Below are positions 28,674 through 63,658 of a stretch of 63,658 nt of DNA, one piece after another. The notes under the pieces were generated by a model that saw only the letters and a list, made by a program, of their open reading frames with translations, was not told the DNA's origin and ran no database searches. Position 1 is the first letter of the stretch; the number at the start of each line of letters is the position of its first letter. The DNA lies in NCBI GenBank assembly GCA_013115125.1, contig JABANN010000135.1:1-63658 (forward strand), in the 5' to 3' direction. The DNA is from Perkinsus olseni (Eukaryota). A program made the translations under genes and the position numbers.

Positions 28674-31609
28674 ATGACTCTATCATGCCATCCTCAAAAC
28701 CAAGCCTTCATGGTACGCTTCCAGGACATGCGAGACACTGCAAGGAGTAGAGGGCAAACGAATCTTGTTCGATCTTATGGGAGGATAATCAGAGCCTTAA
28801 CGAAGTAGGCCGATAGCGTCGCCGAGCCCTCCTCGGTCAGTACGCAACAAACCCTGGGGAACCCCTTTTGTAGATGAGTTGGAAACTCCACTCTCGGAAT
28901 ATATCTTCGACGTGGATTGTCGCTCCTGGGCCGTTGATGCGGACCTCGAAGTTCGCCTCCTGTCGGCCGTGCTCGGCTGACGAGGTGATACATCAGATAC
29001 CCGATGCCCATCACCAGCGGGTGGCAGGCTGAGCAGCTCGACGGTGTCGGCAGTACCTTCGCGCAGGTCGAACCTGTCCGTCCTTAACCGACGTCTAGTG
29101 TAGCTGTTGCAGGTGTTCGTACAACTGCTGAACGAGAAAGAAGCGACCGACTCTCCGAGAAGGTCCTCTCTAACGTGGCGGGATACGTTAAAGTGAGTTA
29201 CGATTTGTGAGTAGCTGATGCAAAGCTCGCCGTCAGCGTTGCGCACGTATTGGTCACGATTCGCCCTCTCAGGAACCGCGCGGAGAAGTTTCAGCGCAGC
29301 GCACCAACTGCTGCATTTGCAGTTCCTGAAGACGGTGAAGCGGCAACAACAGCGCCGAAACAGCGCCAGAGGGAGTATCGTCCTGCGACTGGTGAGCGGG
29401 ATGGCATGGAATCTATGGCTCTTCAAGATAGCGCTACCAATGTTTGTTTCCGTGATGAGGCTATTGGTCGTTGCTTGTGGCATCAGAACTGTGGTGTATC
29501 GATTGACACTGTGAGGTAGGAGGCAAGGTTTCAACAAATATGGGTAGATGAACAGGGCTGAGCCGGGAATCGAACCCGGGACCTCGCGCACCCGAAGCGC
29601 GAATCATACCACTAGACCACACAGCCGCTCGGTTTGAGTATTGTCGGCATTGCTTCACAGGGAGTATTCAGTGGTGCATTCTACTCTCCCTGCAGCTGAG
29701 TCAAAATGGCCTCACCGCAGAGTCACTGCGAAGCCTCAATCGGAAGCAGCTGAGTGTAAGTTCGGTGTTATGATGAAGAAACGCGCCTCTCAGTGAAGCA
29801 CTCTCCTCCATTGATGCTTGCCGTCTGCCCTGGGAGAAGCTCTCGATGGCCATTCGCTCACTCGGTGCTCCCTGCCATCAGACCTGTTGTTCGTCGATTC
29901 AAGACGTTGTCCGTTCCTTCTCATCGGTGGACCGAGAAGTGAGCGCCTCTCCAGCGTCACTGACGGTCAGCACCGCCTCATTGAGATCTCTAGAGAAGCG
30001 GGGCTTACTCTCCGTTGTGGTAATCTTTCAGTGCTTGGCGACCTGGACCGAATTTTTCTTGTCAGGAGGCTCCTAAGGAGAAGGAGTATTGCTTGACACA
30101 GGCTGGAGAGGTCCTCGGCCAACGCATATTGGCCTCTGTCGAGTTCCCGTTAGCGGCCCTGAGCTCCATTAAGTGCAGCACAACGGGGAGTGAATCCACT
30201 CAGACCAGAAAACGTCGAAGGCTTTCATATACGGGAGCTCCCGTGCCGGAGAACGAGCTCGCCCAGTATCGGTATGCTGGGAGCCAGCCCCTTGCTATCC
30301 TGGTGGAGCCTCAGCCCAGCCCAGCCATCCCAGGGCCTTGGGAGGCGGTATTGCTCGTTGACGTCCGTGAGAGTGCCTTGATGAAGGAGCTTTCTGCGCT
30401 CGGAATCCGCGCTGAGGCCCGGAGCCTCCCCATCACTGACTTCCTGTGGGTGAGGAGTGCTCGGACTTAACTGAATTCGCATCGTCACCGAGAGCCCCTT
30501 CAGCTTATGCGGCGATCCATTGACGGCAAGGAGCTCGTTCTCGGCGTAGGAGGTGAACGCAAAACGTGGCAAGATCTGAGTGCTTCGATAATTGATGGCC
30601 GATATGATGAACAGAAATACCGTTTGGCATCCAAGTAGCAATTTCACTGCCGAGTCGGTCCTTCACCAGATTTACCCGTTAGTAACGGGCCGTTACAACC
30701 GACCCGGCTACCGAGCTGGGCCTCCTCTATGCGATGAGACTCTGTCATTTCATGGTTCAGCATCCCTTGCTATGCGTACCTCCTCCCTTTATCTACTCCA
30801 CACTTCAGAGCCATCGCCTTACGGCGCATTTTCTACCTCCTCGAAGGAGACGTCGAGCGAAGCCATGGCCACGCAAGGACCCTCCCGAGTGCGACACTCC
30901 GCACCGCTCTCTGCCACACTCGAATCATTGGAGGCTTTGGCGTAAGGAATCCCCGAGTCCTGGGCAGTGGCGCGGCGAGCAGTTGGTGACAGGTTGTCAA
31001 CACTCCTTCAGTCCGGCACTCAGCAAAACTACTGGCTGCAATGCACAATGTCATTGCCAGACAGAAGCCGGTGGATGAGGGTAGGACAGTGTCACGAACG
31101 CTCCTTATAAACTTCTGGGACAGTCTTGATAGTCATCGCTCAGATAAGTCTACCACTTACGATGCGTTTGCATCATCATGCGCGAAGACCGTCGGCGCCA
31201 CAGTTCGAGATCTAACAGGGGCCATGTTGAGACAAGTAAGTCCATGCGTATAACGCATACCACAACTTCTCGTCTTCCTAAGATATTCGTGATGATATTT
31301 GAACATCATCGGGTCGCCTGATTCAGGTGCCTGGTTGCGGTGCCGAGGCCACCAAAGCGCTGCTTGAAATCACAGAGAAGCGCATGGGTAATGTACCCGC
31401 TCGCGTTGAACAATATTGCTTCGACCCTCTACATTGATGGAGAGCATGCCTTTCCAGATAACGTCACCATGAAGAGCATCAGCAGCCTTCTCCAGAGCAT
31501 GGACGATGTTTCTTTGATGCAGACGGCGAAGGCAGCAAGTAGCAGCAATCGTTCACCCATCACCCAGAAGCTGTTAGACCGACTGCGAGCGGTCTTCATC
31601 AGCGCCTGA
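28674..31609 (+). CDS. MUS81: Crossover junction endonuclease MUS81 (multi-exon)
   Basis: N-terminal HhH (PQNQAF...IRALTK|YPMPITSGWQAEQLDGVG), ERCC4 domain (LLVDVRE, LPITDFLWV, ERKTWQDLSASIIDGRYDEQKYRL), C-terminal TVRDLTGAMLRQ|VPGCG HhH. Confidence 0.93.
29555..29626 (-). tRNA. tRNA-Pro(CGG), inside a MUS81 intron, antisense
   Basis: GGCTGTG TGGTCTAGTGGTATGATT CGCGC-TTCGGGT-GCGCG AGGTC CCGGG-TTCGATT-CCCGG CTCAGCCC; complete cloverleaf. Confidence 0.96.
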
Positions 31610-32263
31610 TACTCGGGTCTCGAATTCGTCCCTTTCGACGCATCACCATATTCATGCAGCGTTTCACCATGATCGCAGTGTTCATGTTCAGAGTATGGCG
31701 CCGCTGCCCCGAGAGGTCGCGCGGATCATGTTTCATTATACCCACCTTTGTAGAACTCATCGGGTCAGTTCGTTACAAAGTGCAACCCAGTGCATTTTCG
31801 GACAATCGGGCTCAACAATGCCACATCCAAGGTAACCGAGCCTTGCTGGATGCTCCGTACCCACACTCCAACTGCCACGAGCCTGAAAGGAATCGGTTGA
31901 AAGCTTTCAACCTGAGCTAGTGGCGCCAACCTCGGCTCATGCTATTGCCCTTTGAGAGATGCATCTCTTCACGCCCTACACGTACGTTGGCCCGACATCT
32001 TTGCCGGAAGTGAAGTGGAGAAAAACGAAAACTTGGGAAGAGTGCATGCTGAAGCAGCAAGAATAGATTTAGATGTTTTGCGGTCATTGAATCCCGGATG
32101 GCCGACAAGTCTCGTGGACAAGCCTATCGTTCCTGGCCTAGGCGGATACCTTCCAGTCTAGAGATTTTGGTTCGGTCGGCCCTCGTCGGGCGCACTGCGC
32201 AGATGGTCTGAGAATTATTCTCGCCTTGGTTGAACCTCTGCAGTGATCTGTTGAATCTATCCG

Positions 32264-34442
32264 ATGGCCTCTCATCACCTCCTTCACAGACGTTTCAACA
32301 TAGCAGGGCCACTACTTCGCAGACAGCCAATCCTCCCAATGGTCCGCCTTTGTAAGCAGTGGCTTATCGTAACAGATGTGCTAGGTACGGTGTTGGTCTC
32401 GAGAGGCTGCGTTACGGGAACTTCTGCCACAGGAGCACCTCAGCCATCTACTCCTCTGCAGTGGGCCCGACTTCGCAGTAACCTCTCATGCTTTCCGCTG
32501 CCGATCGGACAGTCAGCCGATCCGCACTATGTAGATGTCATCGAGCTTAGGTCCGTGACGTCGTCCAGGGCCGACCAGTGAAGCTTCGCAACTCGTTGTC
32601 TCATCCTGATGCGGTAGACCCTCGACAGCTCTTCCCTCGGCAGGTACGGACGATCAGTCGACTCCGCCAGTAGCTTTACCCTCGTTTAAGCTTTTCCCCT
32701 CAGCCTTCCCTCTCCTTCTTATGTTTTCAGTTCGCTTCCTCTGAGGAGCAGCGATACGTTCATTTCACAGTGTCGCGAGCCGGTATGGACCTCGAGGGAC
32801 TCTTCGCCGTGCTCGCCGGACACTCGTGAGCCACCGGCTCCCACCTCGGCTTTCCGGCTTTCCTACCTGAGGTTGTTCTCATCGTCTTCAACTCTTCAGA
32901 TCGGATTCACTTCGCTGGGGCAGTATCCGCAATTCTCACCGCTCGTCCCTATGTACCCAAGTCGTGTCCCTACCGCTAAAAGAATGGGTTTACCATGTTC
33001 TTCCACGGTGGAGCTCCACCAGGGCCGCCATAATCAGTACCGTGAAGCATCTTCCGAGTATGTGTTGTGCCCCCCACTCCGAGTTTCTCAGAGTCTTCCA
33101 CTGCTCGAGGAGGCACATTCGACATCGGACACGTGTCAGTTCAAGGATACCCAATCGATGCTTCTCTCTCTAGCGGCTTCCGCTATGAGCTCACTCTGCG
33201 GCCTGCGATATTGAACGATCCGCAGCCTCCCGAAAACCACCCGCAGGGGCCCACGCCGCTCGACCTAGACGGTATAAGCAAAGCCGTCGAAAATGTGAGT
33301 CAGGCAGGCAGCGTAGAGGCTCGGACGCCGCACTGGGAATCTAGAAAAAAAACGTCATCTGCTTTGCTTATCAGGGGGTTTTTGTACCGCCGCCGGAACC
33401 CGAGAGGCCTCCCATACGAGGATACGAGGGAGTCAAACAGGCTAGCTACCAACAGTTTCCGTTTATTGTAGGCGCGTCCGAGTGACCCCACGTCCGTCCT
33501 TTCTTGTCTCAGAACTACTTTGACCTGCATGCCCTCGACTATCCCCGTTGTCGTGACCATCTCATCGGTTTGGCGGCTCTCTCCGGCAACTTCCGTCAAG
33601 CAGTCGGCTTTCTCTTTGCTCGGGGTTATAACAACGCTGGTGACGCCGCGAGAGCCTTTGATGCGTACGGGGGATGGAGCGCCTCTGGCGGGATGCGCAT
33701 CTTCGGCGCCCTCTCTTGTCATTACCACTGCATAATAGGTTCTCCAGGGGTGATTTCATCGTTTGTGCGGCCTTATTGCCAGAAAGGTTTCACACGGCGA
33801 CTGAAATTCTCCAGAGCCTCTCCGCAGGGATGACGTGGAAGGAGGCGTTCCTCTCATGCGGAGCTTCCCGGTAGGGTTCTCGCTCGGGAACTTACCCCTT
33901 CCCTCGTGGTATGGCAGTTTCATCATCCTCTCTTTTTTAGTCGCTACATCTGTTCGGGCCTCTCATGGATCTGGAATGGCCTTGCTTCTCGCCGTATCAG
34001 TCTCTCCCGTCATGTTCTCCCGGGTGACCTCGTCGTGGCCCCTGGCTCGGACACGCCCATCATGGTCAAGGACGCTGAGGACGCTCGAAGTTTTACCTTG
34101 TCGGATGTCGTCCTTCCTCTAAATCTCATCCATGAGCCCACCTTACCGACGAGTGTCGTGGATGCTCACTCAACAATAATACCGATGCTCCGCGAAGTTA
34201 GAGACCTGGCGAAAGTCCCCATAGAGAAGTTCAGGCCCTTGGTCTCCCTCGCCCGTAGTGTGTACATCGACCCTATCGACGGTGGTGCCCTTCGTGTCTC
34301 CTTCACACTCGATCGAGGCAGCTACCCTGATGTCGCCATGCGGGAGGTTTGCGGTAACCAGATTTTACGCAAATCGGACGAGGAGCCCAAGGAGGTTGAG
34401 CTCAGTCTAGCACGCATGTTTCCGGATATCTGTTTCTTATGA
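32264..34442 (+). CDS. TruD/PUS7-family pseudouridine-synthase-like protein, catalytic motif degenerate (multi-exon)
   Basis: YVHFTV, TQVVSL, FRYELTLR, WNGLASRR, LPGDLV, DVVLPL and VSFTLDRGSYPDVAMRE occur in TruD order. The canonical GTKD is not found. Confidence 0.8.
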
Positions 34443-37447: not shown

Positions 37448-40400
37448 TTAGACATGTGAACTTAGTAACTTCTTACGTAGGTCCTTGAAAGGGCCCAGTG
37501 CTTGCGGGTCCAACTGACACACAAGTGTGCAGTTGGTGCCCCTGGACAGCCTCGTTACCTCAACGATACTCAGGCTTCCCGTGTCCCCGATACACAGCTC
37601 GTGAAGCAGCATTTGGGCATCGGCCTTCGTGAAGCCGTCGAGCAGTTCCCTTCGTTCGCATTGAGAAATGAAGACGTCAGGATCCACACGGCCATGCGCA
37701 TCGGAATGAAGGGAGGTGATCCACTGAGGAGGGGTTCAGTTGGAGGATGCTGCTCCCGGAAAAGGATGCCTACAGCCTCGGCCAAGCTCCTATGCTTGGC
37801 TTGTACGCCTTGCCGGAACCGCATGATCAAATCGTAGGCCTGAGATTCACAATCGTGACTCCACCGTGGATGCTGAGCGAGGGACCTGCGGGTCAACAGA
37901 CTGGAGGGTAATGCCACCTTCAGGAAGCTCTCCAAGGTGCAGCCAGAGCTGCTTCAGTCTCCCTGAGGAACCTGGCCTGCACGACGATGCGACAGTGGCG
38001 TCTCACCTGGGAAGCCAAACGCTGTCGCCACGCCGCAAAATGAGGGGAAGCTGATCCTGGTCGTGCCGTGTTCATCGAAGCACCGTATCCACGCCTAGCA
38101 ATCCCGGTAACGCAGAGAGCCGTCCTCTTGGGCTCACTCTGAGAACACTGCCGAAGCTCCTCTCCAACGCCTGTTTGAATTGCTCCACTGGGTACAGTTC
38201 CAGGTCGTCCCCGGTCCCCTGGGGGCTCGGCAGCGTTGACAGGATCTCAACTGTCTTGGCATAGGTCTCTATTGAGGGGGCACCTGCGAGAGGGCTACGC
38301 GGTAATGAGAGGCTGCCTAAAGGTGATCTTTCCCACTCGAGGAGGTGTAGGCCGACCGTATCGCTTCCTGGAACTCCCGCCGATCCACGTCCTCCAATGT
38401 GACAAAGCCGCAGCGGTCGGGGTCGAACAGTTCAAACAGTTCCCTAATCTGCTCAAGACCACGACGCATCAGCGCCGCTCACCGATCTGCTCGCTACCTC
38501 AACGTCATTGAAGCGTGCTGGGAGCTGGGAACTGCCTCGGGAATGGAGAGCTTCGCACCAACCGCGCCACGACACTCTGCCGCCACCCTTTGGGTCAATA
38601 CATTTCCGCCACTAACAATAAATGGATAGCAAATATCTCCCAGGGTTGAGGAAAAGCCCACGCCAGCGGCCAAAGATCCGGCTGTCCGCCGAAGTGCTCC
38701 CTTGAAGTCCGCAATGAGCACAGCGGCATCGGGGTCGATATGGTCAAGTAATAGCGGCCCCGTCCCGCCTGACGCATAAGGGCATTAACAATCAGCCATC
38801 CGACGAGACCCACCTTTGAGCCTCAACCAGAGACATTTCACACCGCCTTCATACCCCATGGCACGGAAAACTCTAGCGAACTCGAGGAAGGTGATCGAAC
38901 CCCTAGACGAGGAATCCATCACCAGCGACCATGCTCGCCCCAGCGTGCCTGACGGGGTGCGCTCTTCTCCGAGCAACAGCCGGGATTGCTGCTACCATAG
39001 TCGCGACGGAGCTGCGCCAGGAACTTGATCGATCCCCTGGAGGGGGAGAATGCCTCGGGTTCCAAGGTCTCGGAGTCAAGGCGATGATGCCGGGCTAGTC
39101 GTTGGAGTAGTTTGAAGGAAACACTTCCCTGGGGAAACGGAGCTGTCAGCAGGGGGAGTTGGCAAACCCAAGTAGCTCTCACCGAGGCCTCGCCAACAGC
39201 AGCACTGCGCACCCAGCGTTCAAAGACTGACCGGTCGATGTCCTCTAATGTGACTATACCACCCCGCTCGAGATCCAAAATTGTCGCTACTTCCCTGAAT
39301 TTATCAGAATCTCAGGGAACAGAGTACAGGTGTTACTCACTTCCCATTGCTCAATTCAAGCGTCTCACGGCACCGGCTGGCGAAGTCGGCTACCGCTATC
39401 AAGCCTGTCGCTGCAGGGTCCAAGGCATCCCAACCCTCAGATAATCCACCGTACCTGAGGGTCAATGCCCGATTCACCGCTACGTGAGTGTCCCGCACGC
39501 ACTTCTCAACGAGAGCCTCGCGGAATCTCTGCAGATGGTGGCCCGCCGCCTCATCAAGCGATGAGAGAGTGATGAACCCGGTTTGCCACACATCAAGCCG
39601 TCGCCACAGCTGTTTCACACTGCGCGCGAATCCGATCTGAGAGCATCGAAACAGACAGCAGGTGAAGCATGAGCTGACGAACGTGATACCATACAAGATA
39701 ATGCGACCCACACGTGGTCCTGCAGCTCAGTGGTTAGAGCGATGGTCTTATGAGCCATAGGTCGTGGGTTCGACCCCCGCTGGGACTATGTACGAGAAGC
39801 TATCCCTTTAAACCGTACCTCTCTTGCGGTCCGACAGAACGTCATGAAGGGTATTCGCCCCTCTCCCTCAACATCGAGACTTTGTCTCCAAGCATTGGTC
39901 AAACTGCCGTGCCTGAAACGATTTCACTCAGCACTGCAGCTACCCCACTCTGGTGCATAGTGCCGGGATGTAGATTCGTACTCAGCGCTCACCTCAACAC
40001 GAGCTGCTTCTTGAAATCTTCAAGCGTGCTCGAGCTCGCGTCCGTGCAAGGGAATCTCTGGCTCGACTTACCACCGAGCAGAAGCTTTCGTGACCTGGAG
40101 AGAGATCTAGCGCCGCTGACTCAAGTATGAATGGCCGGCAGTATGAGCTGGTGTGGCGCTAGCCTGACCTTTGCGATTCCTCCACGAACTGCTCGAGTTC
40201 GACGAAAGAACCCCCTCGAAAACCTCGCAGAGACTCGTCCCAGGTTGCCTTCAAACGGTCAACCTTGGCTTGCACCACTCCCAAAGATTGCTCGTAATTG
40301 TCACGATACCTGAGTAGCCTCTTAGCCTTCTGCCAAACTTCTCCGCCTCCAAATCGCCACAGAGGTCCAGAAGCAGGCTTACCATGCTTCCCACTGTTCA

Positions 40401-53639: not shown

Positions 53640-55100
53640 CTTCAGTCGCTGGCCAGGAAGTGGACAGAGTCGCCGAGAAGAGTGAGTTGGTATCGCTTTG
53701 GGCCAGCTTGGTTTGGTGGCTTCTCGATCGATCTGGCGTTGGGCTGTGTATCAGTAGTTGCCCTGTGCTATAACTAATCACTCTTAGGCACCGGCTCAAG
53801 AGCCTCGAACACGCGCTCTATTCCTTCTTTGAGGAGTACCGAGACTGCATCGAGAAAAGAGACTCCGGGTAGGTCCGTAGAGAGTGAGACCGGAGCGTTG
53901 TAACGGTGCGCTCGGGCTAACCTAGCGAAATCTGCGCCCGGGGCTGCCATGTCCATCTGGGCCATTTCGCGCTCGTCGAATGAGAGTGGTAGGTCAGCTC
54001 ATAGCGGACGCATTGAAGCCGTGGCCTCCTCATAGGTGATGAGGTCATCAACTGCGTGTCTTAGGGTCTTCCGTGGAGCTGTCGGCCAGGGGCCAGGCTC
54101 GTGATAAAGAGGAGGATAGCTGGCGGAAGACTTTGGACGAAGCCAGTAAGCTTCATACTGCCTGAACGATTTCACTACTCCATAGTGCTGATATCGCCTA
54201 TGTGTAACGCCGAAGGAGCACGCTATGTATTTCGGACCTGTGGATCGGGCATCGGCGTGAATGAGTAGTTCGCCAATGGGTTTTTGCAGGGCGGGAGATT
54301 CGAGAGTTGAAGGCACTAGAGAGCCGCATATTGTGGAACATGCGGAGAGAGGAGAGGGTGAGGATTTTATCGTTCTGTTGCCTTTCTTATGGCCGCTCCT
54401 GTTGTTGGTACCCTCATGATCATCCTCAGCTGACCAAAAAGAAGATTGAAAGTGAAGCCCAGAAGGACATCACCGAGTGGAGGCGAAAACATGAGGCGAG
54501 TCTGCGTGAGGGCATCGAAGAATACAGGAAGTCAGTTCAACAGCGTGAGCTAAAAGTAGACGGCGGCGCGTTGGAGAAGCTGCGAAGCGACAGCTCTCAG
54601 GAAAACCTCGAGTCTGTCCAGTTCAAGCGAGAAAGGAAGCTTCGGGCCAAGCAGGCAGAGTTGCAGCAGGTAGCCGAGAATTATGATGCTCAACGCGAGA
54701 AGTCTATCCAGTGGGAAAGCCTCGAGAAGGAGCGCGTACTGGGTGCCCGCTCATCTGTAGCTCCCTCACTGACATCAATTTAGCTAATGGCTGAGGTAGC
54801 CTTCAAGACTGACCAGCGACAAGATCGCGCGGAGACTCGGCAGCTCGAGAAAGTGAAAAAGATGGAGGCAGCCATGGAAGAGCGGAGCGAAAGGTGATCA
54901 GTGAGACCCTAGCTAACTGAGAATATGGACCGCGGAATGCATCGTGGAATATATGCAGTATTCCTGTTACTGGTCTTGCAAGACTTATTGGATAGTCATG
55001 TGATTCAGGTCGTGGGACAGAGCGACAGCGATGGAGTTTGAGAAGAGACAGCTACTAGCGGAGAAGAATCGTCGTTTGAAGGTCTTGCTGGGGTTGGGGT
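53640..55100 (+). CDS. Hypothetical charged coiled-coil protein (multi-exon, limits approximate)
   Basis: REIRELKALESRILWNMRREER, KKKIESEAQKDITEWRRK, RKLRAKQAELQQVAE, with short introns. Confidence 0.6.
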
Positions 55101-55720
55101 TGTAGTGCATTCAAGTCGCGGCGGCCTGCTGGATCTCTTCCTGCGAGAGTAGTGCGTTCATGGCATCATAGCGAAGTTCCAGCATGGAACATGTGTATAA
55201 AGGTGTTTTCCGATGCCGGGACTCGAGCCCGGGTCGTCTGGGTGAAAGCCAGATATCCTAACCAGCTAGACTACATCGGAGTTGTTAGGAGTATAGAGGC
55301 CGTACTCGGCCTGCTTGTTCAGGAGCTCCAACTGACGGCGTCTCTGTGTGGAACAGTAACTAGCTGAACCATCGTGGGAAGCAGGGAATCGAGACTCTAC
55401 CATAATTCCCGAAGGGAATCATGTGATTCTATTACCATTACCGTCCACTGCCGCATGGCTCGTGTTGAGGACTTCAGTGATCACAGAAGCAGCTGACATT
55501 GTTGCGTTATGACTGAGTCTTTGCGAGTACTCGGACTCTGGAGATACAGTTCCTCGCGACGTGGCCGACGTCACGTAGAGCTTAATATTTGCTCGTTGTA
55601 CGACCTTAACCGGGGGGGGGGTCGGCATTGTCGATGATTGTGGTGCATGACGCCGTCTTGAGGATCCTTCGCTTTCCGGCAGACTTCCGAGCCTCCGATA
55701 GTCCACCCCCCTACCTTGCT

Positions 55721-57778
55721 ATGTCGTCACCGAGCTCACCCGCTGGCGGCAGCCCCGTGAAGCAGCGGAGGAGGTTGCGAAAGTTTGGGGAGTCGGGCGA
55801 TTCCCCTGCCGCTAGCGTAGAGGTGTCCGTGAAGAAAGAGCGTCCAGGTGAAGACCAGAGATCCCGACATCGACCAGTGAGGCCTACTCTATGCCATGGA
55901 ACTTTCGAAGCAAAGCTTTGATTGTTCAGGTTAAGGTGCGACCAATACTTCCTGTGGAGAGACTGGCCTCTTTCAAAAAAGAAGCCGCGCGTTCTGTATT
56001 TGGTGCAAATGAGTAATCAGTTCGTTGAGCTGCGGAATCGCCTTCGCGGCAGTTTACGTAGCCTACGTTAATCTCGTCATGGGTTGTTAGTCATTGGGAA
56101 CGGCAGCTCGGCTGCGTTCTTGGCTAGAACGACATGCCTTACGGGCTCATTATTGACAGGTCGCCATTTCGCCCTAAGTCCTCGTCATTATCTGCAGCCA
56201 AGTTCGTACCAAAGAGGCCTGATGCGCGAACGGTCGGTAGCGGGGAACCCACCTTGGCGAAGGCTATAGGGAAGATAGCCCGAGAGATGAATGCCTCGAG
56301 TGAGGAGGAGCCGATGCCGAGCAGCGTCAAAGTGATACTAATGAACGCGATGAAGGAGTCGGCAAGCAAGAAGAGAAGAGAGAAGATGAAGGGGAGTTCA
56401 CGTGAGAAGCATGGTTCTTCAAATCCGGAATTCTCAGTTCCGGAATTGAAACGAGAACTCTTCCATTCTATGCCTGGTATCTCAGGGGCTGCTGTAATAT
56501 CAACCGCAGCTCATTCTGGGTCCAGCTCGCGTCCGATCCATCAGCTCCTTGGTGGAGGGTTGAAAGCAGCAGATGAGATCGTAAGTTGCAGGATAGTCTT
56601 GAGTAGTCAAGATCCCTATTGCTCAGTCCAAAACAGAGCATCGCAAGGAAGGCCAACCTCTCACAGAAAGACCGCTCGATGACGTTGCTTTCGGCGCTAT
56701 CGAGGACGGCATACAGGAGTGGGTTCTCAGCTGCCGATTCTTGTGCTTGAGGGCGGGAGCAACGCTGTGCCCCATCATCGCTACGGATAAGCGATACCAT
56801 TGTTTCTTAGGTACCCTCCTCTGTCGGTACCCTACTATTCGACTCGACGTATCCATCACGATATCTTGCGAGCCACTGGTTACACAGAAACTTCACTCCT
56901 CGATACTCTCAAGATGGAAGGGAAGAGGCCCGTGCTAGTGGAAATGGCCGGGGCTACTGTTGAACAAGAGTAAAAATGCTCTTAGTGACGTCAAGCATTG
57001 CAAGCGCTGTTGCTGCTGGATTCAGGTCCAGCGGAGTTTCTCAGCTCTTCGTAGAGGACAACGCAGCCGACAGTGAGAAAGAGAGCTCTCTGAGACAAGA
57101 TCAGTTCTTCCTGGTGAGAACGTCCCTTGTTTAGCCTTGTCGGGAACCCCATAGTTAGGTGCAACTGCCAAACACATTCCCTCGAGTCTTAGCAGACAAA
57201 GAGGACGACGAGGGCAAACAGACTGCAAAAGGTATGTTCCTCAAGCGAAGTATCTCAACCTTGAGTATACGTAAAATTACTGGAACCGAGAATCGAACTC
57301 GGGACCTACTGCGTGTTAGGCAGTCGTCATAACCAACTAGACCATTCCAGCTGTGTTAGCAGCTCTTATGAGAGCGAGTAGTGAATCCTTTGCGTGGATT
57401 ACATTGTTATCGGCATTCGTACGAGTGGTTTCTCAGCTACGCAACCACTAGCACCAGAGCAGGATGTAGCAAGCTTTTACGACGTACCCGACGGGAAGCT
57501 CGGGACTCTGCGCGTCCACAAGAGCGGGCGGGTCACCCTCGTTATCGGGGATATTGAGTAAGCGCGAAACTTACTACTCTGAGCAACGGAATGGAGGGTA
57601 GATACTCATGCGCGTTGGGGCAGAAGCCGAAATTTGCACAGGAAGTTGCGTGCGTATTGCCCACACAAGGCGAAGTTGTGTTCCTGGGAGAGATAGAGAA
57701 CAAATTGGTGAGTGGATGAAGCCTGGCGTGGCGGCTCGTGAAAGCTTCTTCTCCCAGATCGTGTCGCCCAAGATCTGA
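55721..57778 (+). CDS. RPC4: RNA polymerase III subunit RPC4 (C53/POLR3D) (multi-exon)
   Basis: Disordered N-terminus with KFVPK, then VQLPNTFP...DVPDGKLGTLRVHKSGRVTLVIGDI...GQKPKFAQEVACV...VFLGEIENKL|IVSPKI*, the Rpc4 C-terminal domain pattern. Confidence 0.9.
57278..57351 (-). tRNA. tRNA-Val(AAC), inside an RPC4 intron, antisense
   Basis: GCTGGAA TGGTCTAGTTGGTTATGACG ACTGC-CTAACAC-GCAGT AGGTC CCGAG-TTCGATT-CTCGG TTCCAGTA, followed by ATTTT. Confidence 0.96.
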
Positions 57779-57921
57779 GCCTGCCGCTGAGGGCAGCAGT
57801 ACATTATAGAATCGTACAGTATCAGCACGGGGCGGTTTTACGCTCATGTAGAGTAAGTCAACCCCCAGCTGGCAGCCATGAACATGTCCTGTTTATTTTC
57901 AGGTAGTGCATAGGCGGCGTT

Positions 57922-60900
57922 ATGTTATCCATCTTCCTGATGGCCCATCCCATCGTCAAACCCGTGCACTCCGAACCACACTTAGTTGAAGGACTATCTA
58001 TTTAACGCAATTTGATCGATGATGATGCTATTGAGTTAGAAGTCATCCCATTAGCGTTGGTTCTAGGACCCCCTCGCCATGCCCTTCTAAGAGTGGCATT
58101 GGAGCTGTTAGGTGTACTCGGCGCTGTTGCAAGCATCTTCAAGTTCTCTGTAGGTTTTTTGATGAGGTCATTCTTGTAGAATTCTATGCCTCAACCTCTC
58201 CACTACGTTTGTCGAGCTGCCATCGTCCAATACATCCTCGCTGATGGCTGGGTGCTTCCTGACGTGCTGGATTGTTCTAACATCGCGTTTCCGGGCTCTG
58301 CAGGCCGGATGATGTGGGCCGAGTGGGTTGCGGGGCTCTACCGGTCGGACTGGTCGGGTTCACTGAAGGCGCTTCACAGTTACCTGCAAAGAGTGAAGCA
58401 TGTTGATGAGCATCCCGAAGACTTGGCAGCGTTGGACGAAGCACGGCTACTCAGCCTTGCTGCAATAAATGAAGTTCTTGGTGGGCTCGGACGTCGTAGT
58501 CATGAGTTGTAGTCTCAGAATGGGCTCAGAAAACCCTGAGTTCCGTGAGGATGGTCCCTTATACCACAAGTCTCGCATTCTCAAGTTCCCTGGTACTGGT
58601 AAGGGGACGTGGCATCAGAATTCATCAGGCAGTTGTACATCGGGCTTGTTGTATGCTACCTACAACGCCATTAGATGGGTAAGTACCGTGCCAGAGATGC
58701 TGAAGAGGGATGTAGAGAGTGCGGCGAACCGAATATTAATTCGCCTTAGCCGAACGTTGCGGTTAGACTTCAAGCGGGTGAAAACGATCTCGATTCATTC
58801 GATAGGCTATGATCCTCTTCCCAGTGCTCCGCGATAAGGCAATAAGGAGGGTCTGATGCTGCGAAATCTACCCGTATTTGTAACCTGCGTTTTGCCCAGA
58901 GTCTGTCGGACCCTAACGGAGACCCAGATGCCTTGGCAGATCTACAGAGCTTAGGGCGCAATGTAGGTCGAAGTGTTCTCAGCCGCAGCTCCGCCGTACC
59001 AGGATTCAGATACTCATGCATTACACACAGTTCCCTGGGAATGATGCAGACACCACAGAGTCCTCCATGTTCCCTTTCACTTCTGCAGATCTGGAGGTTA
59101 TACGTTCTTTGGGGTGTAGCTTCAGCGCGTGGCAGGTTGTGCTCGATCACAAACCGGGGAGAACCTATTCTGAGGGATTCGACTCTTGGAAGGCGGACTA
59201 CTCGGAACAGCGTGGGGTTGACAAACCTCTCACCGACTTCCAAAATGTAGCCCGATGAATTCAGGAAATCGCTCACACGGCTTCATCACCATTTCAGCCC
59301 GCCTTGGATATACCAGCGGGGAGTAGTGGGAGCTCGCGGAGTGCACTGCGCATCGCCGCTATTAGCGAGCATATGCAGTTTGTCTTTGAGGCAGCGACTA
59401 TGGCTGCTGAGGCCTTTCCTCATCAAGGTGCAATCCTTGATGACTGGTAGCTGCTCTGTAGTCGGTTATTGGTCTAGGTTCTGTCACAGTTGGGACGTAT
59501 TTTGCAAAGTTCCGTCATGTCGCGTCTGAAGGAGAGCTTGGACCCATGCGAGTCGAAGTGAGACGTAGGTGAGGACTGGCCATTCATGGGCGTCCCTTGT
59601 AGGGCTTCATGAATCTCAGTTATGAGGCGCTATGGGATGGGTTACAGGATGCCGGGCCGGAGGATATTGATAGGGTCATGGCAGACGCTTGGACGGATGA
59701 CTTCTGGCGGAAAGGTTGGTCTTGGAGGTTGGCTAGTGACTCCCTGTCTCGAGGGATATCGAGGCACCGCTATCAATAACCTCCCTGCTCAACTACGTCG
59801 GCCGGTGAGGCCCGCCATCGGCGTCCTGTTCTCGGAGGGGTAATTCTGGGTGGAAGAGTCATTTTCGTCTTGGTCAGCGGATGCTATCCTTTGTGTGGAT
59901 GTTGCCCTGTGGATCTGCGGTCTAATGCATCGCAACCGACCGCCTTCATTCCAAGACCGTGGCATGATCGTGTAAGCCTCCTCACTCTCGATGAGAATCG
60001 AATTAATTCCCTGTCGAGGAGGATGCGGCCCGGTCGTTCTGTGTCCCCAACCAGCGCTCCCGTCATCCAGTCAGGTACAGTAACACGGCGCTCCTGTGCC
60101 AGTTGCCACCAGCTGTCCCACTGGAGGTTGTCTGGAAAGCCCTGCATGATCTGATCAATCACCCCAGGACGTCGATAGCATCAGCAAATAAGATAACCGC
60201 AGGGCAAATCAAATATCAGTTGGGTAAACCGTGAACAATCCAGTGGAGTTGGAAAGGGCTCCTATGCTAGGTCTATCCGTCCCTGTTGTGTCGGCTACCG
60301 GGCTGTACGTCCAGGAGTCCTGGAGCCCCCGCGTGACCTGGGTATCAGCCGAGCTCCCCCGGGTCTTAGTCTGGCGGTGCCCGTTGCAGCGCTGTATTGT
60401 AAGAGCGAGCTCATGCACTTACGTGGGAGTGCCTGTGAAGCTGGTCGTCGCAGGTGTACCGGCATATGATACTGCGCTACCTCGAAGCCAACCTCGAACA
60501 GCCGGAAGAGAGTCGTGAGCCTTTCGCGATTCGGATAGATTTCTTGTGAGTGGCACTTCTGTGTCATCCCGGCTTGATCACTTTCAACCTTCATAGTGGG
60601 TGATTAGTGTACTATCGACCCAATTTCCAGAAAGTGAGGACTATCTGAACGTGGATTAGCCGATATTCTGCTACCACATCTGGTTGATAACTCATCCTTG
60701 CCAGGCTTCACGATGAAAGTCATTTGGGTGGAGAGAGTACTGAGAGGCAGATCTTCAGATCTTCGGCGAATCGAATGCAAAATATTGTTACGTTAGTAGG
60801 TGATTTTCATCGTCACAGAGCCCATGACATATGGCAGGTCGAGAGGCCTCTCTCCCTCGGCGAGATCGCGGCTAATTATCAAGCTGTAGTTCTATTCCCG

Positions 60901-61570
60901 TGGGAACCCTTCATGCTCACCGTCACTGACTTGATGGGCCTGGGCATCCCGATCTTCATCCCTGACGAGCCTCTGCTCCACCGCTTCGTGCTAGCCGGTA
61001 GGGTCTGACCTCACAAGCAGCGTTTCATGCACAGCCCTTTCAGGGTCATTTCCCTATGGTGGTGTCATGCAGGACCCGGCCCAAGCTCGTGCAAGATCGC
61101 CGAATGCCACAGGATATGATGAGCGCGATCCCTTCCAGTGAGGTTGCTGTCGATCAACTGGGATGAAATTGCAGTCTCGAGGTTCATGCATGATGAACCA
61201 GGAGTTAAGCTCGAGGATCGGCAGTACTGGCTGGCACAGACAGACTTCGTCGGCAGTGACTGGATGCTACGTTTCAAGAGTGAGACCTTCGCTCAGCCTA
61301 AGCGTCCCATGACATAACATCGAAGCCTCCCTGCACAAGTGCAGTATTTGATGAAGTGTTCATGCCTGTCCTTTTCCCGGGCATTCCAGAATGTTGGTCC
61401 CTTAGATGCAGTTCAGCGTGTCGCGTGTGTTCAGATGTGCCCGACCTTCTCACCAAACTGCAGAACTTCATCTACAAGAATGATACGCTCCGGGTTGCAT
61501 TGGTGGGGCGTATCCACCGTGAACAGCACCGCCGCCTCCTACAGAGCATCCACTGGTGGAAGGCTTCCAT
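57922..61570 (+). CDS. Large hypothetical protein, glycosyltransferase-like C-terminus (multi-exon, limits approximate)
   Basis: LGEIAANYQAVVLFPWEPFMLTVTDLMGLGIPIFIP and YWLAQTDF resemble GT-B donor-binding segments. Confidence 0.5.
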
Positions 61571-61756
61571 GCATGGGCACGTAGCCTCTATTCTGGTTGA
61601 TTCCCTCTGCATTCCAACTGTTTAGTTTGATTATTGAATATCCCATCAGTTTAGCCAGAAGCTTAGGAAGCCGAGTCCACTTGGCTAATCTACCCGTCAT
61701 TCGTTGTGTATCTCTCCGCCTGTGGGTGGTGCGTCTCAGCGTCTCTCGTCGTGTTG

Positions 61757-63196
61757 ATGTCTTCCTCGAGCTCTTCTTCATCTGCTATTGGGACGGGGTC
61801 TCGGCGAAGATCGGCGTCGATCGGTAGTACGCATCAAGCCGAGAGCTTGCCGGACTTCCTATCGCGGTCGTGGCATCGGAGCTTCAATGATGTTCCGATT
61901 GAAGATAAGATACGTACTGCAGACAGGTATGTACTTGGCCCCAATTTCCCTCACGCTCACGATGCTTTCATTTTTTAGGATGATACAGAGACTGATGGGT
62001 TGGGACACTTCGGAGAATCCACTTATTGAGTTCCTCTATGACCCTAAGACAGGCAACACCACCAAAGCAGTCGTAGACGTAGAGGCCCTTCACCGGCGAC
62101 AGGCTGCTGCGGTAGGCGCGAATGAATCATGATCGACTTGCACGGCTCTGCGAAGTTCAGTTTCAAGGGATACTAGCGGTTTTGGGGGAAGTGGCCGATC
62201 CGCAGGAAGTGGAAAGACTTCTCAGGATGGACCATAGCGCGGAGCCTGTGAGGCCTCGGGATCTCCGAGAAAAACCAGAGGTGGGGAAGTCCTTATCAAC
62301 CTTTTGCTCCTGATTGCTCTCTCCTCCCAGGACTTGGTTTCCAACGGTGTACAGCCGCAAGAAGAGCACTCGGTGGCCAAGCTAGCTATCGAGGGAGCCC
62401 GACTCTCCGTCCCGTCCTCCAAAGTAAGGAAAGGGCCGTCTTGCGGATGGGATACTCCTACTGTGAATCTCGTTGCGAACCTATGCTACAGGAATCTGCA
62501 ATCTCTACTGTAGTTGCTGCTCGGAACCCAAGATCCCTCTTAATGTATCGGTTCACTCTTTGCTTGAATGCATAAGGAGGTTCAAACGACCCAGTGGCCT
62601 TTGGAATTGACATAGATCGATAGTGGACCGAATGCTAGGCTAAACACGCGAGTACACCCAACTTTCAATGTCGCCATGCTGGATAATTGAAGTACCCCGG
62701 TGGCAGCGGTCCTAGATAGGCTAGTGCGGGAAGTATTGCAGAGAGTTCTCTCCGTGAGAGGGGTAGTCAACCCCGCTCAGTAAGCGATGTGAAGTTTTCA
62801 GTATTGTATTAGGTACCTTTTCTCATTGGGTCGGACAGCGAAGAATGCCACTTCGATATTTCATCACTGATTGACTTTAGCGACCATCTAGCTCCTGCAG
62901 GAGACCCTATCGTTCATGCAGTACGCTCTAAGCGGTTTACCAGGACCCTGCCGTGTCTTGAATCACGTCATTAGGTTCACTGTGGTATCGACCGGAATTC
63001 CGAGGCTGGATGGATGTTGAGAAACTATGGTGGAGGTCATTACTCCAATTAGTCCACAGCCGTACATAAGCTACCACTATCAGGTACATTCGTGGACGGC
63101 ACGCCGGTCCCGGCGGATTCTACTGTGCCACTCCATCCAGGAAGCCAGATTCAGATCCATCACCTGACGTTTATCTTCTTTCCAATCGATGACTGA
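61757..63196 (+). CDS. FHA-domain protein (multi-exon)
   Basis: PFLIGSDSEECHFDI...SLHCGI...WMLRNYG...GTFVDGTPV...LHPGSQIQIHHLTFIF. Confidence 0.75.
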
Positions 63197-63415
63197 CCTG
63201 CAGTCACCGCGACTGACTGTATATTTTTTCGAAAGATCTGCCTTTTGTTCCAAGTGCTTGAGTGTCATATCTCTCTACCCATCGAGCTACAGGATCATCG
63301 AGGAACGTAGCCCACGAGACTATTGCTGATAGGCGCCCTGAACCTTCGGAATCACGAACCTGAAGCTGCTCCGCGAAACCGAAGTCTAGTACTAGCAAGC
63401 AACACATCATCTACG

Positions 63416-63488
63416 TAGTCCCGGCGGGGGTCGAACCCACGACCTATGGCTCATAAGACCATCGCTCTAACCACTGAGCTACAGGACC
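63416..63488 (-). tRNA. tRNA-Ile(TAT), tandem copy 1
   Basis: GGTCCTGTAGCTCAGTGGTTAGAGCGATGGTCTTATGAGCCATAGGTCGTGGGTTCGACCCCCGCCGGGACTA. Confidence 0.97.
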
Positions 63489-63581
63489 GTTGAGCTACGC
63501 CGTCCGCGAGATTTTTGCCGATATATGCCCTCAACGTTCGAATTTCCCAACCTACAACTAGCAAGCAACACATCATATACG

Positions 63582-63654
63582 TAGTCCCGGCGGGGGTCGA
63601 ACCCACGACCTATGGCTCATAAGACCATCGCTCTAACCACTGAGCTACAGGACC
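63582..63654 (-). tRNA. tRNA-Ile(TAT), tandem copy 2
   Basis: Identical to the copy at 63416..63488. Confidence 0.97.
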
Positions 63655-63658
63655 GTTG

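What the first reader, a model, noticed from the sequence alone, without database searches (positions are those of the whole stretch)
57232..57436. A Pol III-transcribed tRNA gene sits antisense inside an intron of the Pol III subunit gene RPC4: candidate autoregulatory loop
Seen: removing 57232..57436 (GT...AG, 205 nt, about four times the local intron size) joins ...GKQTAK|ATQPL...GKLGTLRVHKSG in frame. The intron holds an intact antisense tRNA-Val(AAC) with a T4 terminator. Known: RPC4 (C53) pairs with RPC5 (C37), and in mammals the RPC5 gene POLR3E carries an antisense Pol III-transcribed MIR in an intron that interferes with Pol II passage. Inference: Pol III occupancy here could throttle RPC4 mRNA output, a convergent feedback circuit built from a true tRNA gene. 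Other genes here also host tRNAs, so it may be incidental.
Basis: partly seen in the sequence, partly recalled or inferred. Interest (0 to 1): 0.78.

Follow-up and report, generated by a model that had tools for sequence, protein, structure and literature searches.

The report
tRNA gene nested in RPC4 intron
An intact valine tRNA gene does lie backwards inside a spliced intron of the gene for RNA polymerase III subunit RPC4 in this Perkinsus contig, but half of the tRNA genes nearby sit the same way in unrelated genes, so it is probably an ordinary nesting and not a dedicated feedback switch.

Summary
tRNA-Val(AAC) lies at 57278..57351 on the minus strand (ARAGORN; Rfam 64.5 bits), with a T4 run one base past its 3' end. 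It sits inside a 205-nt GT..AG intron, 57232..57436. That intron is spliced out in contigs of 4 of 4 runs laid. The host is RPC4: the exon after the intron alone passes Pfam PF05132 (33.2 bits, cut-off 26.5). The gene has 11 exons (CDS 55721..57778), and this is intron 8 of 10, 3.9 times the median of 15 RNA-supported introns.

The proposed autoregulatory loop has no support beyond the layout. In the same window, 3 of 6 tRNA genes lie antisense in enlarged introns. tRNA-Pro is in a MUS81 intron of 269 nt and tRNA-Ile is in an EF-hand gene intron of 182 nt. Nesting is therefore routine here, as in C. elegans, where 264 of 608 tRNA genes are nested (PMC3342880).

I could not test conservation in P. 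marinus or P. chesapeaki, because no DNA from them was reachable. Verdict: a new member of a known kind. A feedback role remains possible but unshown, at about 10%.

The parts
55721..57778 (+). RPC4 (Pol III subunit C53/POLR3D-like) coding region, 11 exons, 411 aa. Introns: 55877-55929, 56013-56159, 56402-56485, 56581-56626, 56719-56810, 56970-57025, 57114-57158, 57232-57436, 57558-57601, 57708-57757.
   Evidence: Nine of the ten introns appear as GT..AG joints in contigs of 4 of 4 runs. The last intron is my own model; it fits the C-terminus IVSPKI of P0004 and P0005. Identity is 95% to three P. olseni proteins and 68-70% to the P. chesapeaki and P. marinus proteins. Pfam PF05132 hits exons 9 and 10.
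57232..57436 (+). Intron 8 of RPC4, 205 nt, GTATGT...TCTCAG. It hosts the tRNA gene.
   Evidence: The joint that skips 205 nt is present in X6, X9, X7 and X19. The join is in frame.
57278..57351 (-). tRNA-Val(AAC) gene, 74 nt, antisense to RPC4. It lies 46 nt from the intron's 5' splice site and 85 nt from its 3' splice site.
   Evidence: ARAGORN. Rfam RF00005 at 64.5 bits, full-length, with one non-standard pair in the D stem. Distances.
57273..57276 (-). T4 run on the tRNA strand, one base after the tRNA's 3' end. It is a likely Pol III terminator.
   Evidence: Sequence read directly. That T-runs terminate Pol III is established knowledge, recalled and not tested here.
57437..57557 (+). Exon 9 of RPC4, the conserved ...DVPDGKLGTLRVHKSGRV... 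block.
   Evidence: Pfam PF05132 RNA_pol_Rpc4 at 33.2 bits (cut-off 26.5), profile positions 64-96 of 143.
57602..57707 (+). Exon 10 of RPC4.
   Evidence: Pfam PF05132 at 16.8 bits, profile positions 102-137 of 143, colinear with exon 9. It is near-identical in P0004 and P0005.
55208..55280 (-). tRNA-Glu(TTC) gene in the spacer upstream of RPC4. It lies 103 nt after the stop of the upstream coiled-coil gene and 441 nt before the RPC4 ATG, also on the opposite strand.
29392..29660 (+). Comparator: a 269-nt GT..AG intron of the MUS81 gene that holds tRNA-Pro(CGG), 29555..29626, on the minus strand.
   Evidence: The joined translation is identical to the junction in P0007, a protein annotated on a contig of 63658 nt, the same length as the window. 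tRNA. No RNA was laid here.
39637..39818 (-). Comparator: a 182-nt GT..AG intron of an EF-hand protein gene (minus strand) that holds tRNA-Ile(TAT), 39715..39789, on the plus strand.
   Evidence: The junction ...CRTARE|IGFARSV... matches the P. olseni protein P0006. tRNA. No RNA was laid here.

Best explanation
This is an ordinary nested gene arrangement. An intact, multi-copy-family tRNA-Val(AAC) gene has come to lie, antisense, inside intron 8 of the RPC4 gene. The genome is compact and tRNA-rich, and introns are one of the few places where a tRNA gene can sit without harm. Shown here: the tRNA gene, its T4 run, the splicing of the 205-nt intron, the RPC4 identity of the host, and two other tRNA genes in the window nested in the same way in unrelated genes. 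Inferred: the tRNA is transcribed by Pol III from its internal A and B boxes; Pol II reads through it often enough to make normal, fully spliced RPC4 mRNA; and the choice of RPC4 as host is incidental and not selected. Any head-on interference between Pol III (with TFIIIB and TFIIIC) and Pol II would then be a general cost shared by all such host genes, not a device specific to RPC4.
For: Three of the 6 tRNA genes in the window (3 of 5 loci if the tandem Ile pair counts once) lie antisense inside enlarged introns. These are tRNA-Pro in a MUS81 intron of 269 nt, tRNA-Ile in an EF-hand gene intron of 182 nt, and tRNA-Val in the RPC4 intron of 205 nt. I delineated about 8-9 genes in two stretches of about 11 kb each. 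That suggests roughly 23 genes in the window, my extrapolation, so about 1 gene in 8 hosts a tRNA. In the RPC4 locus, intron DNA (822 nt) is about as plentiful as the upstream spacer (about 615 nt), so half of tRNAs in introns is near the neutral expectation. Loose ends exactly at 57278 and 57351 in all 4 runs show further tRNA-Val copies with unrelated flanks, so this copy is one of a family. Fully spliced RPC4 contigs occur in 4 of 4 runs. P. marinus is reported to hold more than 500 copies of just five tRNA types (PMC3706591, passage read). In C. elegans 264 of 608 tRNA genes are nested in introns, and only 52% of those arrangements are kept in C. briggsae (PMC3342880, passages read).
Against: RPC4 is flanked by two antisense tRNA genes: tRNA-Glu 441 nt upstream of the ATG and tRNA-Val in intron 8. 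This echoes mouse Polr3e, which has a tRNA-Leu gene upstream of its TSS plus the intronic antisense MIR (PMC5358760 section 5). By hand arithmetic, with 5 loci in 63.7 kb, a given 2.7-kb span holds two or more loci with probability about 0.02; this is post hoc and tRNA genes cluster. tRNA-Val is the only one of the 6 with a T4 run right behind it; the others show only T3 within 40 nt. That fits an actively terminated unit. Three other P. olseni gene models (P0001-P0003) all stop at the exon before this intron, on short contigs of 2.2-5.2 kb. I read this as assembly breaks at the repeated tRNA, so the arrangement is probably shared among P. olseni isolates. Yeast data show that tRNA genes and TFIIIB can block Pol II (PMC5052057, passages read), so some interference is plausible whatever the origin of the arrangement.
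Confidence: 0.72

Rival explanations
1. Selected negative feedback. Pol III, TFIIIB and TFIIIC on the antisense tRNA-Val gene slow or stop Pol II in intron 8. High Pol III activity then lowers full-length RPC4 mRNA and so lowers Pol III assembly, as proposed for the MIR in mammalian Polr3e.
For: The layout needed for it is present and RNA-verified. The orientation is head-on. In the Polr3e reporter assay only the antisense orientation had an effect (PMC5358760 Discussion). RPC4 is the dimer partner of the subunit regulated in mammals. A second antisense tRNA gene lies upstream of the gene, as at mouse Polr3e. tRNA genes block Pol II in yeast (PMC5052057).
Against: Three of the 6 tRNA genes in the window are nested in the same way in unrelated genes, so there is no statistical sign of a special pairing. 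The tRNA sits in intron 8 of 10, near the 3' end, not in the first intron. Spliced full-length mRNA contigs are present in 4 of 4 runs. Even in mammals the protein effect was 1.5-fold and the feedback loop was only proposed. No conservation, occupancy or expression data could be obtained.
Confidence: 0.1
2. Regulation in the other direction. Pol II transcription and the open chromatin of the RPC4 host gene tune the expression of the nested tRNA-Val copy, as shown for intronic tRNAs in C. elegans.
For: [quoted passage not shown] Here the whole Pol III unit, including about 85 nt upstream of the tRNA, lies within the transcribed host intron.
Against: There are no data from this organism. tRNA-Val(AAC) has other copies, so control of one copy may matter little. 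The contigs laid cannot show RNA levels.
Confidence: 0.08
3. The nested tRNA gene is a silent copy. It is not occupied by Pol III, for example because passing Pol II displaces TFIIIC and TFIIIB, and is simply carried along as intron filler.
For: It belongs to a multi-copy family. tRNA families turn over quickly in nested positions in nematodes (PMC3342880).
Against: The gene is intact: full-length Rfam match at 64.5 bits, A-box-like and B-box-like blocks by eye against recalled consensus, and T4 directly downstream. There is no sign of decay.
Confidence: 0.08
4. Gene-model artefact. The two sides of the 'intron' belong to separate genes, and the tRNA is intergenic.
For: Three public P. olseni gene models end at this point (P0001-P0003).
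Against: Single contigs in 4 of 4 runs join 57231 to 57437 and carry on through the downstream exons. The P. marinus and P. chesapeaki proteins run across the same junction. Pfam RPC4 positions on exons 9 and 10 are colinear.
Confidence: 0.02

Closest known systems
Antisense MIR (a Pol III-transcribed SINE) in the first intron of mammalian Polr3e/POLR3E (Yeganeh et al. 2017, PMC5358760)
   Same: A unit with a type-2 (A and B box) Pol III promoter is nested antisense in an intron of a gene for a subunit of the Pol III TFIIF-like heterodimer. A tRNA gene also lies upstream of the host gene.
   Different: Here the guest is a true tRNA gene, not a SINE. The host is RPC4, not RPC5. The intron is the 8th of 10, not the first. 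Conservation, Pol III occupancy, Pol II pile-up and an effect on the host are shown in mammals and are untested here. Here the same nesting also occurs in unrelated neighbouring genes.
[quoted passage not shown]
   Same: A complete tRNA gene lies inside a spliced intron of a Pol II gene. This is a frequent arrangement: 264 of 608 tRNA genes in C. elegans, and 3 of 6 in this window.
   Different: The lineage differs (a perkinsid alveolate). The typical introns here are very short, median 53 nt, so each nested tRNA makes its intron 3 to 5 times longer. All three nested cases here are antisense. I did not obtain orientation figures for C. elegans.
tRNA gene/TFIIIB roadblocks to Pol II in budding yeast (Roy et al. 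2016, PMC5052057)
   Same: This work gives the physical basis for any interference: TFIIIB, and to a lesser degree TFIIIC, stops Pol II at tRNA genes.
   Different: In yeast the blocked transcripts are non-coding or read-through RNAs approaching intergenic tRNA genes, not mRNAs that must pass through a tRNA gene. According to that paper no yeast tRNA gene showed Pol II read-through. Here Pol II must read through to make RPC4 mRNA.

Membership tests
tRNA (Rfam RF00005), isotype Val, anticodon AAC | Cloverleaf sequence and structure match above the family threshold | tested here: met
   64.5 bits against a gathering score of 29, model positions 1-71 of 71, E 1e-11 for the whole window. ARAGORN calls Val(aac).
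tRNA (Rfam RF00005), isotype Val, anticodon AAC | Features of an active Pol III unit: internal A and B boxes and a downstream T-run | tested here: inconclusive
   A T4 run starts 2 nt after the 3' end. A-box-like and B-box-like blocks were judged by eye against recalled consensus. Transcription itself was not tested.
RNA polymerase III subunit RPC4/C53 (Pfam PF05132) | Match to the RNA_pol_Rpc4 domain above Pfam's gathering score | tested here: met
   Exon 9 alone scores 33.2 bits (cut-off 26.5), profile positions 64-96. Exon 10 scores 16.8 bits, positions 102-137, colinear. Orthologues P0004 and P0005 carry a precomputed PF05132 hit.
RNA polymerase III subunit RPC4/C53 (Pfam PF05132) | Physical membership of the Pol III complex, paired with RPC5/C37 | not testable with these tools
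   Inferred from homology only.
Nested intronic tRNA gene (as catalogued in Caenorhabditis) | The tRNA gene lies wholly inside an intron that is really spliced | tested here: met
   The joint that skips 57232..57436 is present in 4 of 4 runs, and the tRNA at 57278..57351 lies inside it.
Polr3e-MIR-type transcriptional interference loop | A Pol III unit antisense within an intron of a Pol III subunit gene | tested here: met
Polr3e-MIR-type transcriptional interference loop | The arrangement is conserved across related species | not testable with these tools
   No genome is held for this window. Two metagenome scans found no perkinsid RPC4 locus. Only the intron position is seen to be shared, from the P. 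marinus and P. chesapeaki proteins.
Polr3e-MIR-type transcriptional interference loop | High Pol III occupancy with Pol II pile-up in front of the unit | not testable with these tools
   This needs ChIP, NET-seq or PRO-seq. Contigs cannot show it.
Polr3e-MIR-type transcriptional interference loop | Removing the unit raises host expression | not testable with these tools
   Requires an experiment.
Polr3e-MIR-type transcriptional interference loop | The pairing of guest and host is specific, beyond the background rate of nesting | tested here: not met
   Three of the 6 tRNA genes in the window are nested antisense in introns, two of them in genes unrelated to Pol III. The sample is small, a single window.

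The most novel reading that the evidence does not exclude
In Perkinsus, head-on nesting of active tRNA genes in the introns of Pol II genes is a pervasive feature of the genome: in this window 3 of 6 tRNA genes are nested, and all 6 lie on the strand opposite the host or neighbouring gene. This makes Pol III activity a genome-wide brake on many mRNAs. RPC4 is bracketed by an upstream tRNA-Glu and the intronic tRNA-Val, and it is the point at which this brake feeds back on Pol III itself. That would be a convergent counterpart of the mammalian Polr3e-MIR circuit, built from true tRNA genes.
Probability: 0.1. Interest if true: 0.65.

Novelty: new member of a known kind. Interest (0 to 1): 0.3.

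Why it matters
If the loop were real, it would be a second, independently evolved case of Pol III limiting its own TFIIF-like subunit pair through a nested antisense Pol III gene. It would lie in a lineage far from mammals, which would argue that such circuits are a general solution. As the evidence stands, the value is more modest. It gives an RNA-verified, corrected gene model for RPC4 in this contig; three public P. olseni models stop at this intron. It also shows that tRNA genes in this parasite often sit antisense in introns that they enlarge three- to five-fold. Gene predictors and assemblers appear to stumble on that arrangement.

Tried and rejected
1. My first gene model started at ATG 56134 and was wrong at its 5' end. 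The RNA contigs show three further upstream exons and an intron at 56402-56485. As a result the query contained intron sequence and understated identity (75-77% against 95%).

3. I tried to find orthologous loci from other perkinsids. Alignment A1, with partial rows, was unusable. With A2, 215 stretches of metagenome contigs matched a pattern but none was confirmed by tblastn; one of the two patterns the tool chose spans an exon junction. A degenerate DNA pattern for a peptide inside exon 10 found 0 stretches. Conservation of the tRNA across species is therefore left open.

4. A Pfam scan of 132 stop-to-stop ORFs around tRNA-Pro and tRNA-Ile gave only an ERCC4 hit, weak EF-hand hits and one weak Atthog hit. 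The host genes were instead settled with public Perkinsus proteins and tblastn.

5. I asked whether other long introns hide an RNA gene. An Rfam scan at E<=1 over 55000-63658 found nothing inside the 147-nt or 389-nt introns. ARAGORN found no tRNA in the 389-nt intron, and blastn found no repeat of the 389-nt, 205-nt or 147-nt introns elsewhere in the window beyond short tRNA-like words.

6. I folded the intron as pre-mRNA. The energy was -56.4 kcal/mol, z -1.69, and 12 of 200 shuffles folded at least as well, so there is no notable structure.

7. Whether unspliced or truncated RPC4 transcripts exist could not be judged. The runs are contigs, whose depth and gaps carry no such information.

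8. Literature searches for Perkinsus intronic tRNAs found 18 papers (12 listed) and 2 papers. None of the listed titles or abstract openings deals with it. Supplements were not opened.

Full report
WHAT IS THERE

ARAGORN finds six tRNA genes in the window. One of them is tRNA-Val(AAC) at 57278..57351 on the minus strand. Rfam's tRNA model matches it end to end at 64.5 bits against a gathering score of 29. The only irregularity is one non-standard pair in the D stem. On the tRNA strand the gene is followed by A and then TTTT, at 57276..57273.

THE HOST GENE

The translation of 57439..57555, the exon just downstream of the proposed intron, alone passes Pfam's threshold for RNA_pol_Rpc4. It scores 33.2 bits against a cut-off of 26.5 and covers profile positions 64-96 of 143. 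The next exon matches positions 102-137 at 16.8 bits.

My first gene model began at 56134 and was wrong at its 5' end. I laid contigs of four public runs from four studies on 54000..63658. One run is on record as RNA, two are guessed to be RNA and one is of unknown kind. In every run the contigs carry the same chain of GT..AG joints.

From these joints the coding region runs from ATG 55721 to the stop at 57778. It has 11 exons and introns of 53, 147, 84, 46, 92, 56, 45, 205, 44 and 50 nt. The last intron is my own model; the other nine are. The joint listed as '57229->57435, skips 205, GT..AG (cut +2)' is the intron 57232..57436, and it is present in 4 of 4 runs. This is intron 8 of 10. The median of the 15 RNA-supported introns listed is 53 nt, so 205 nt is 3.9 times the local norm. 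Long introns without a tRNA also exist, at 147 nt and 389 nt.

The 411-residue product is 95% identical to three Perkinsus olseni proteins. It is 68-70% identical to the P. chesapeaki and P. marinus proteins that carry PF05132. A P. olseni MUS81 protein found later sits on a contig of exactly 63,658 nt, the length of the window. The window is therefore a P. olseni contig.

IS THE PAIRING WITH A POL III SUBUNIT SPECIAL?

I worked out the setting of the other five tRNA genes.

- tRNA-Pro (29555..29626, minus strand) lies in a 269-nt GT..AG intron (29392..29660) of the plus-strand MUS81 gene. The joined translation is identical to the junction in the annotated protein P0007.
- tRNA-Ile (39715..39789, plus strand) lies in a 182-nt GT..AG intron (39818..39637) of a minus-strand EF-hand protein gene. 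The junction matches P. olseni protein P0006.
- tRNA-Glu (55208..55280, minus strand) lies in the spacer between genes. It is 103 nt after the stop of the upstream coiled-coil gene and 441 nt before the RPC4 ATG.
- The two tandem tRNA-Ile genes at the window's end lie after the stop codon of a plus-strand gene. That gene has a weak FHA match of 19.3 bits against a cut-off of 20.7.

So 3 of 6 tRNA genes are nested antisense in introns, each of which they enlarge three- to five-fold. All six tRNA genes are on the strand opposite their host or neighbouring gene. No RNA was laid on the MUS81 and EF-hand introns; they rest on public protein models plus GT..AG boundaries.

From the genes I delineated, about 8-9 in two stretches of about 11 kb each, I extrapolate some 23 genes in the window. 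On that estimate roughly one gene in eight hosts a tRNA. At such a rate, some gene of the Pol III machinery would be expected to host one by chance.

Several other observations point the same way. In the RPC4 locus the introns add up to 822 nt, against about 615 nt of upstream spacer, so introns are about half of the space available to a tRNA gene. Contigs whose match starts or stops exactly at 57278 or 57351 and continues into unrelated sequence occur in all four runs (table 7). This tRNA is therefore one member of a multi-copy family, and its flanks are not repeated.

WHAT THE LITERATURE SAYS

[quoted passage not shown] POLR3E forms the TFIIF-like dimer with POLR3D/RPC4. The negative feedback loop itself was only proposed. 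The mouse gene also has a tRNA-Leu gene upstream of its TSS (PMC5358760; abstract, section 5 and Discussion read).

In yeast, TFIIIB at tRNA genes blocks Pol II at 132 of 272 tRNA genes (PMC5052057, passages read).

Nested intronic tRNA genes are common in C. elegans, at 264 of 608, and 52% of those arrangements are kept in C. briggsae (PMC3342880, passages). There the host promoter influences the nested tRNA (PMC4999229, abstract and passages).

P. marinus is reported to have more than 500 copies of five tRNA types (PMC3706591, passages).

I found no paper on intronic tRNA genes in Perkinsus in two searches: 18 papers of which 12 were listed, and 2 papers. I saw only titles and abstract openings. 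Supplements were closed and might hold tRNA tables.

HOW IT MOST LIKELY WORKS

Shown:
- The tRNA gene is intact.
- It lies head-on in a real intron, 46 nt from the 5' splice site and 85 nt from the 3' splice site.
- About 85 nt of its upstream DNA, which in yeast would hold the TFIIIB footprint, lies inside the intron.
- Complete, spliced RPC4 mRNA is made.

Inferred:
- Pol III transcribes the tRNA from its internal promoter.
- Pol II passes through it often enough to make the mRNA.
- The arrangement arose and persists as neutral nesting in a compact, tRNA-rich genome.

Some head-on interference is physically plausible. If it occurs, it would apply equally to MUS81 and to the EF-hand gene. I put the incidental reading at about 0.72, a selected feedback loop at about 0.1, host-to-tRNA regulation at about 0.08, and a silent tRNA copy at about 0.08. 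A gene-model artefact is excluded.

POINTS IN FAVOUR OF THE BOLDER READING

RPC4 is bracketed by two antisense tRNA genes, which recalls the layout at mouse Polr3e. tRNA-Val is the only one of the six with a T4 run directly behind it; the others show only T3 within 40 nt.

The three other P. olseni gene models (P0001-P0003) all end at the exon before this intron. Two are marked partial, and all three are on contigs of 2.2-5.2 kb. Two of these contig lengths, 2,235 and 2,253 nt, are close to the 2,144 nt between the outer ends of tRNA-Glu and tRNA-Val. I read this as assemblies breaking at the repeated tRNA genes. If so, the arrangement is shared among P. olseni isolates. This is an inference, and conservation within one species says little about selection.

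WHAT COULD NOT BE DONE

I could not reach DNA of P. marinus or P. chesapeaki. No genome is held for this window. Two metagenome scans found nothing. The key test, conservation of the tRNA in the orthologous intron, therefore stays open. Only the intron's position is seen to be shared, because both orthologous proteins run across the same junction. Pol III occupancy, Pol II pausing and any effect on RPC4 output need experiments.

VERDICT

The local base rate of identical nestings argues that it is incidental. I classify it as a new member of a known kind, with interest 0.3.

Noticed in passing
window 29392-29660, 39637-39818, 57232-57436, and all six tRNA genes: All six tRNA genes in the window are on the strand opposite their host or neighbouring protein-coding gene, and the three nested ones are all antisense. 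One possible reason, which is my inference, is selection against sense-strand tRNA structures that RNase P or RNase Z would cut out of the pre-mRNA. The sample is too small to be sure.
   Followed up: partly
window 55208-55280: tRNA-Glu(TTC) lies on the minus strand in the short spacer between the coiled-coil gene (stop at about 55103-55105) and RPC4 (ATG 55721). Public models of three Perkinsus species (P0003, P0004, P0005) fuse these two genes into one protein, which is probably an annotation error across this spacer.
   Followed up: partly
window 57232-57262; proteins P0001-P0003: Three public P. olseni RPC4 models stop at, or read into, the tRNA-bearing intron and so lack the conserved RPC4 domain. 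The long intron or the repeated tRNA seems to defeat prediction or assembly.
   Followed up: partly
window 62424-62812: A 389-nt GT..AG intron is spliced in 4 of 4 runs, in a plus-strand gene with a weak FHA match. It is about 7 times the usual intron size. It has no tRNA, no Rfam match at E<=1 and no repeat elsewhere in the window. Low-depth contigs of X6 and X9 cover it unspliced.
   Followed up: partly
window 63415-63488 and 63581-63654: Two identical tRNA-Ile(TAT) genes lie 166 nt apart (start to start) at the very end of the contig. tRNA-Ile is one of the targets of Dada transposons reported in P. marinus (PMC3706591). The contig may end here because of this repeat.
   Followed up: no
window 28874-34439: The protein annotated on this contig, P0007 (930 aa), carries both ERCC4/MUS81 and TruD Pfam domains. 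The P. marinus MUS81 (524 aa) covers only 28674-31561. The P. olseni model probably fuses two neighbouring genes.
   Followed up: no
window 56367 (run X19): One contig of run X19 carries a 3-nt insertion (AAG) and several substitutions in RPC4 exon 3. These match the extra lysine in P0002, so a second P. olseni strain or haplotype is present in that run.
   Followed up: no
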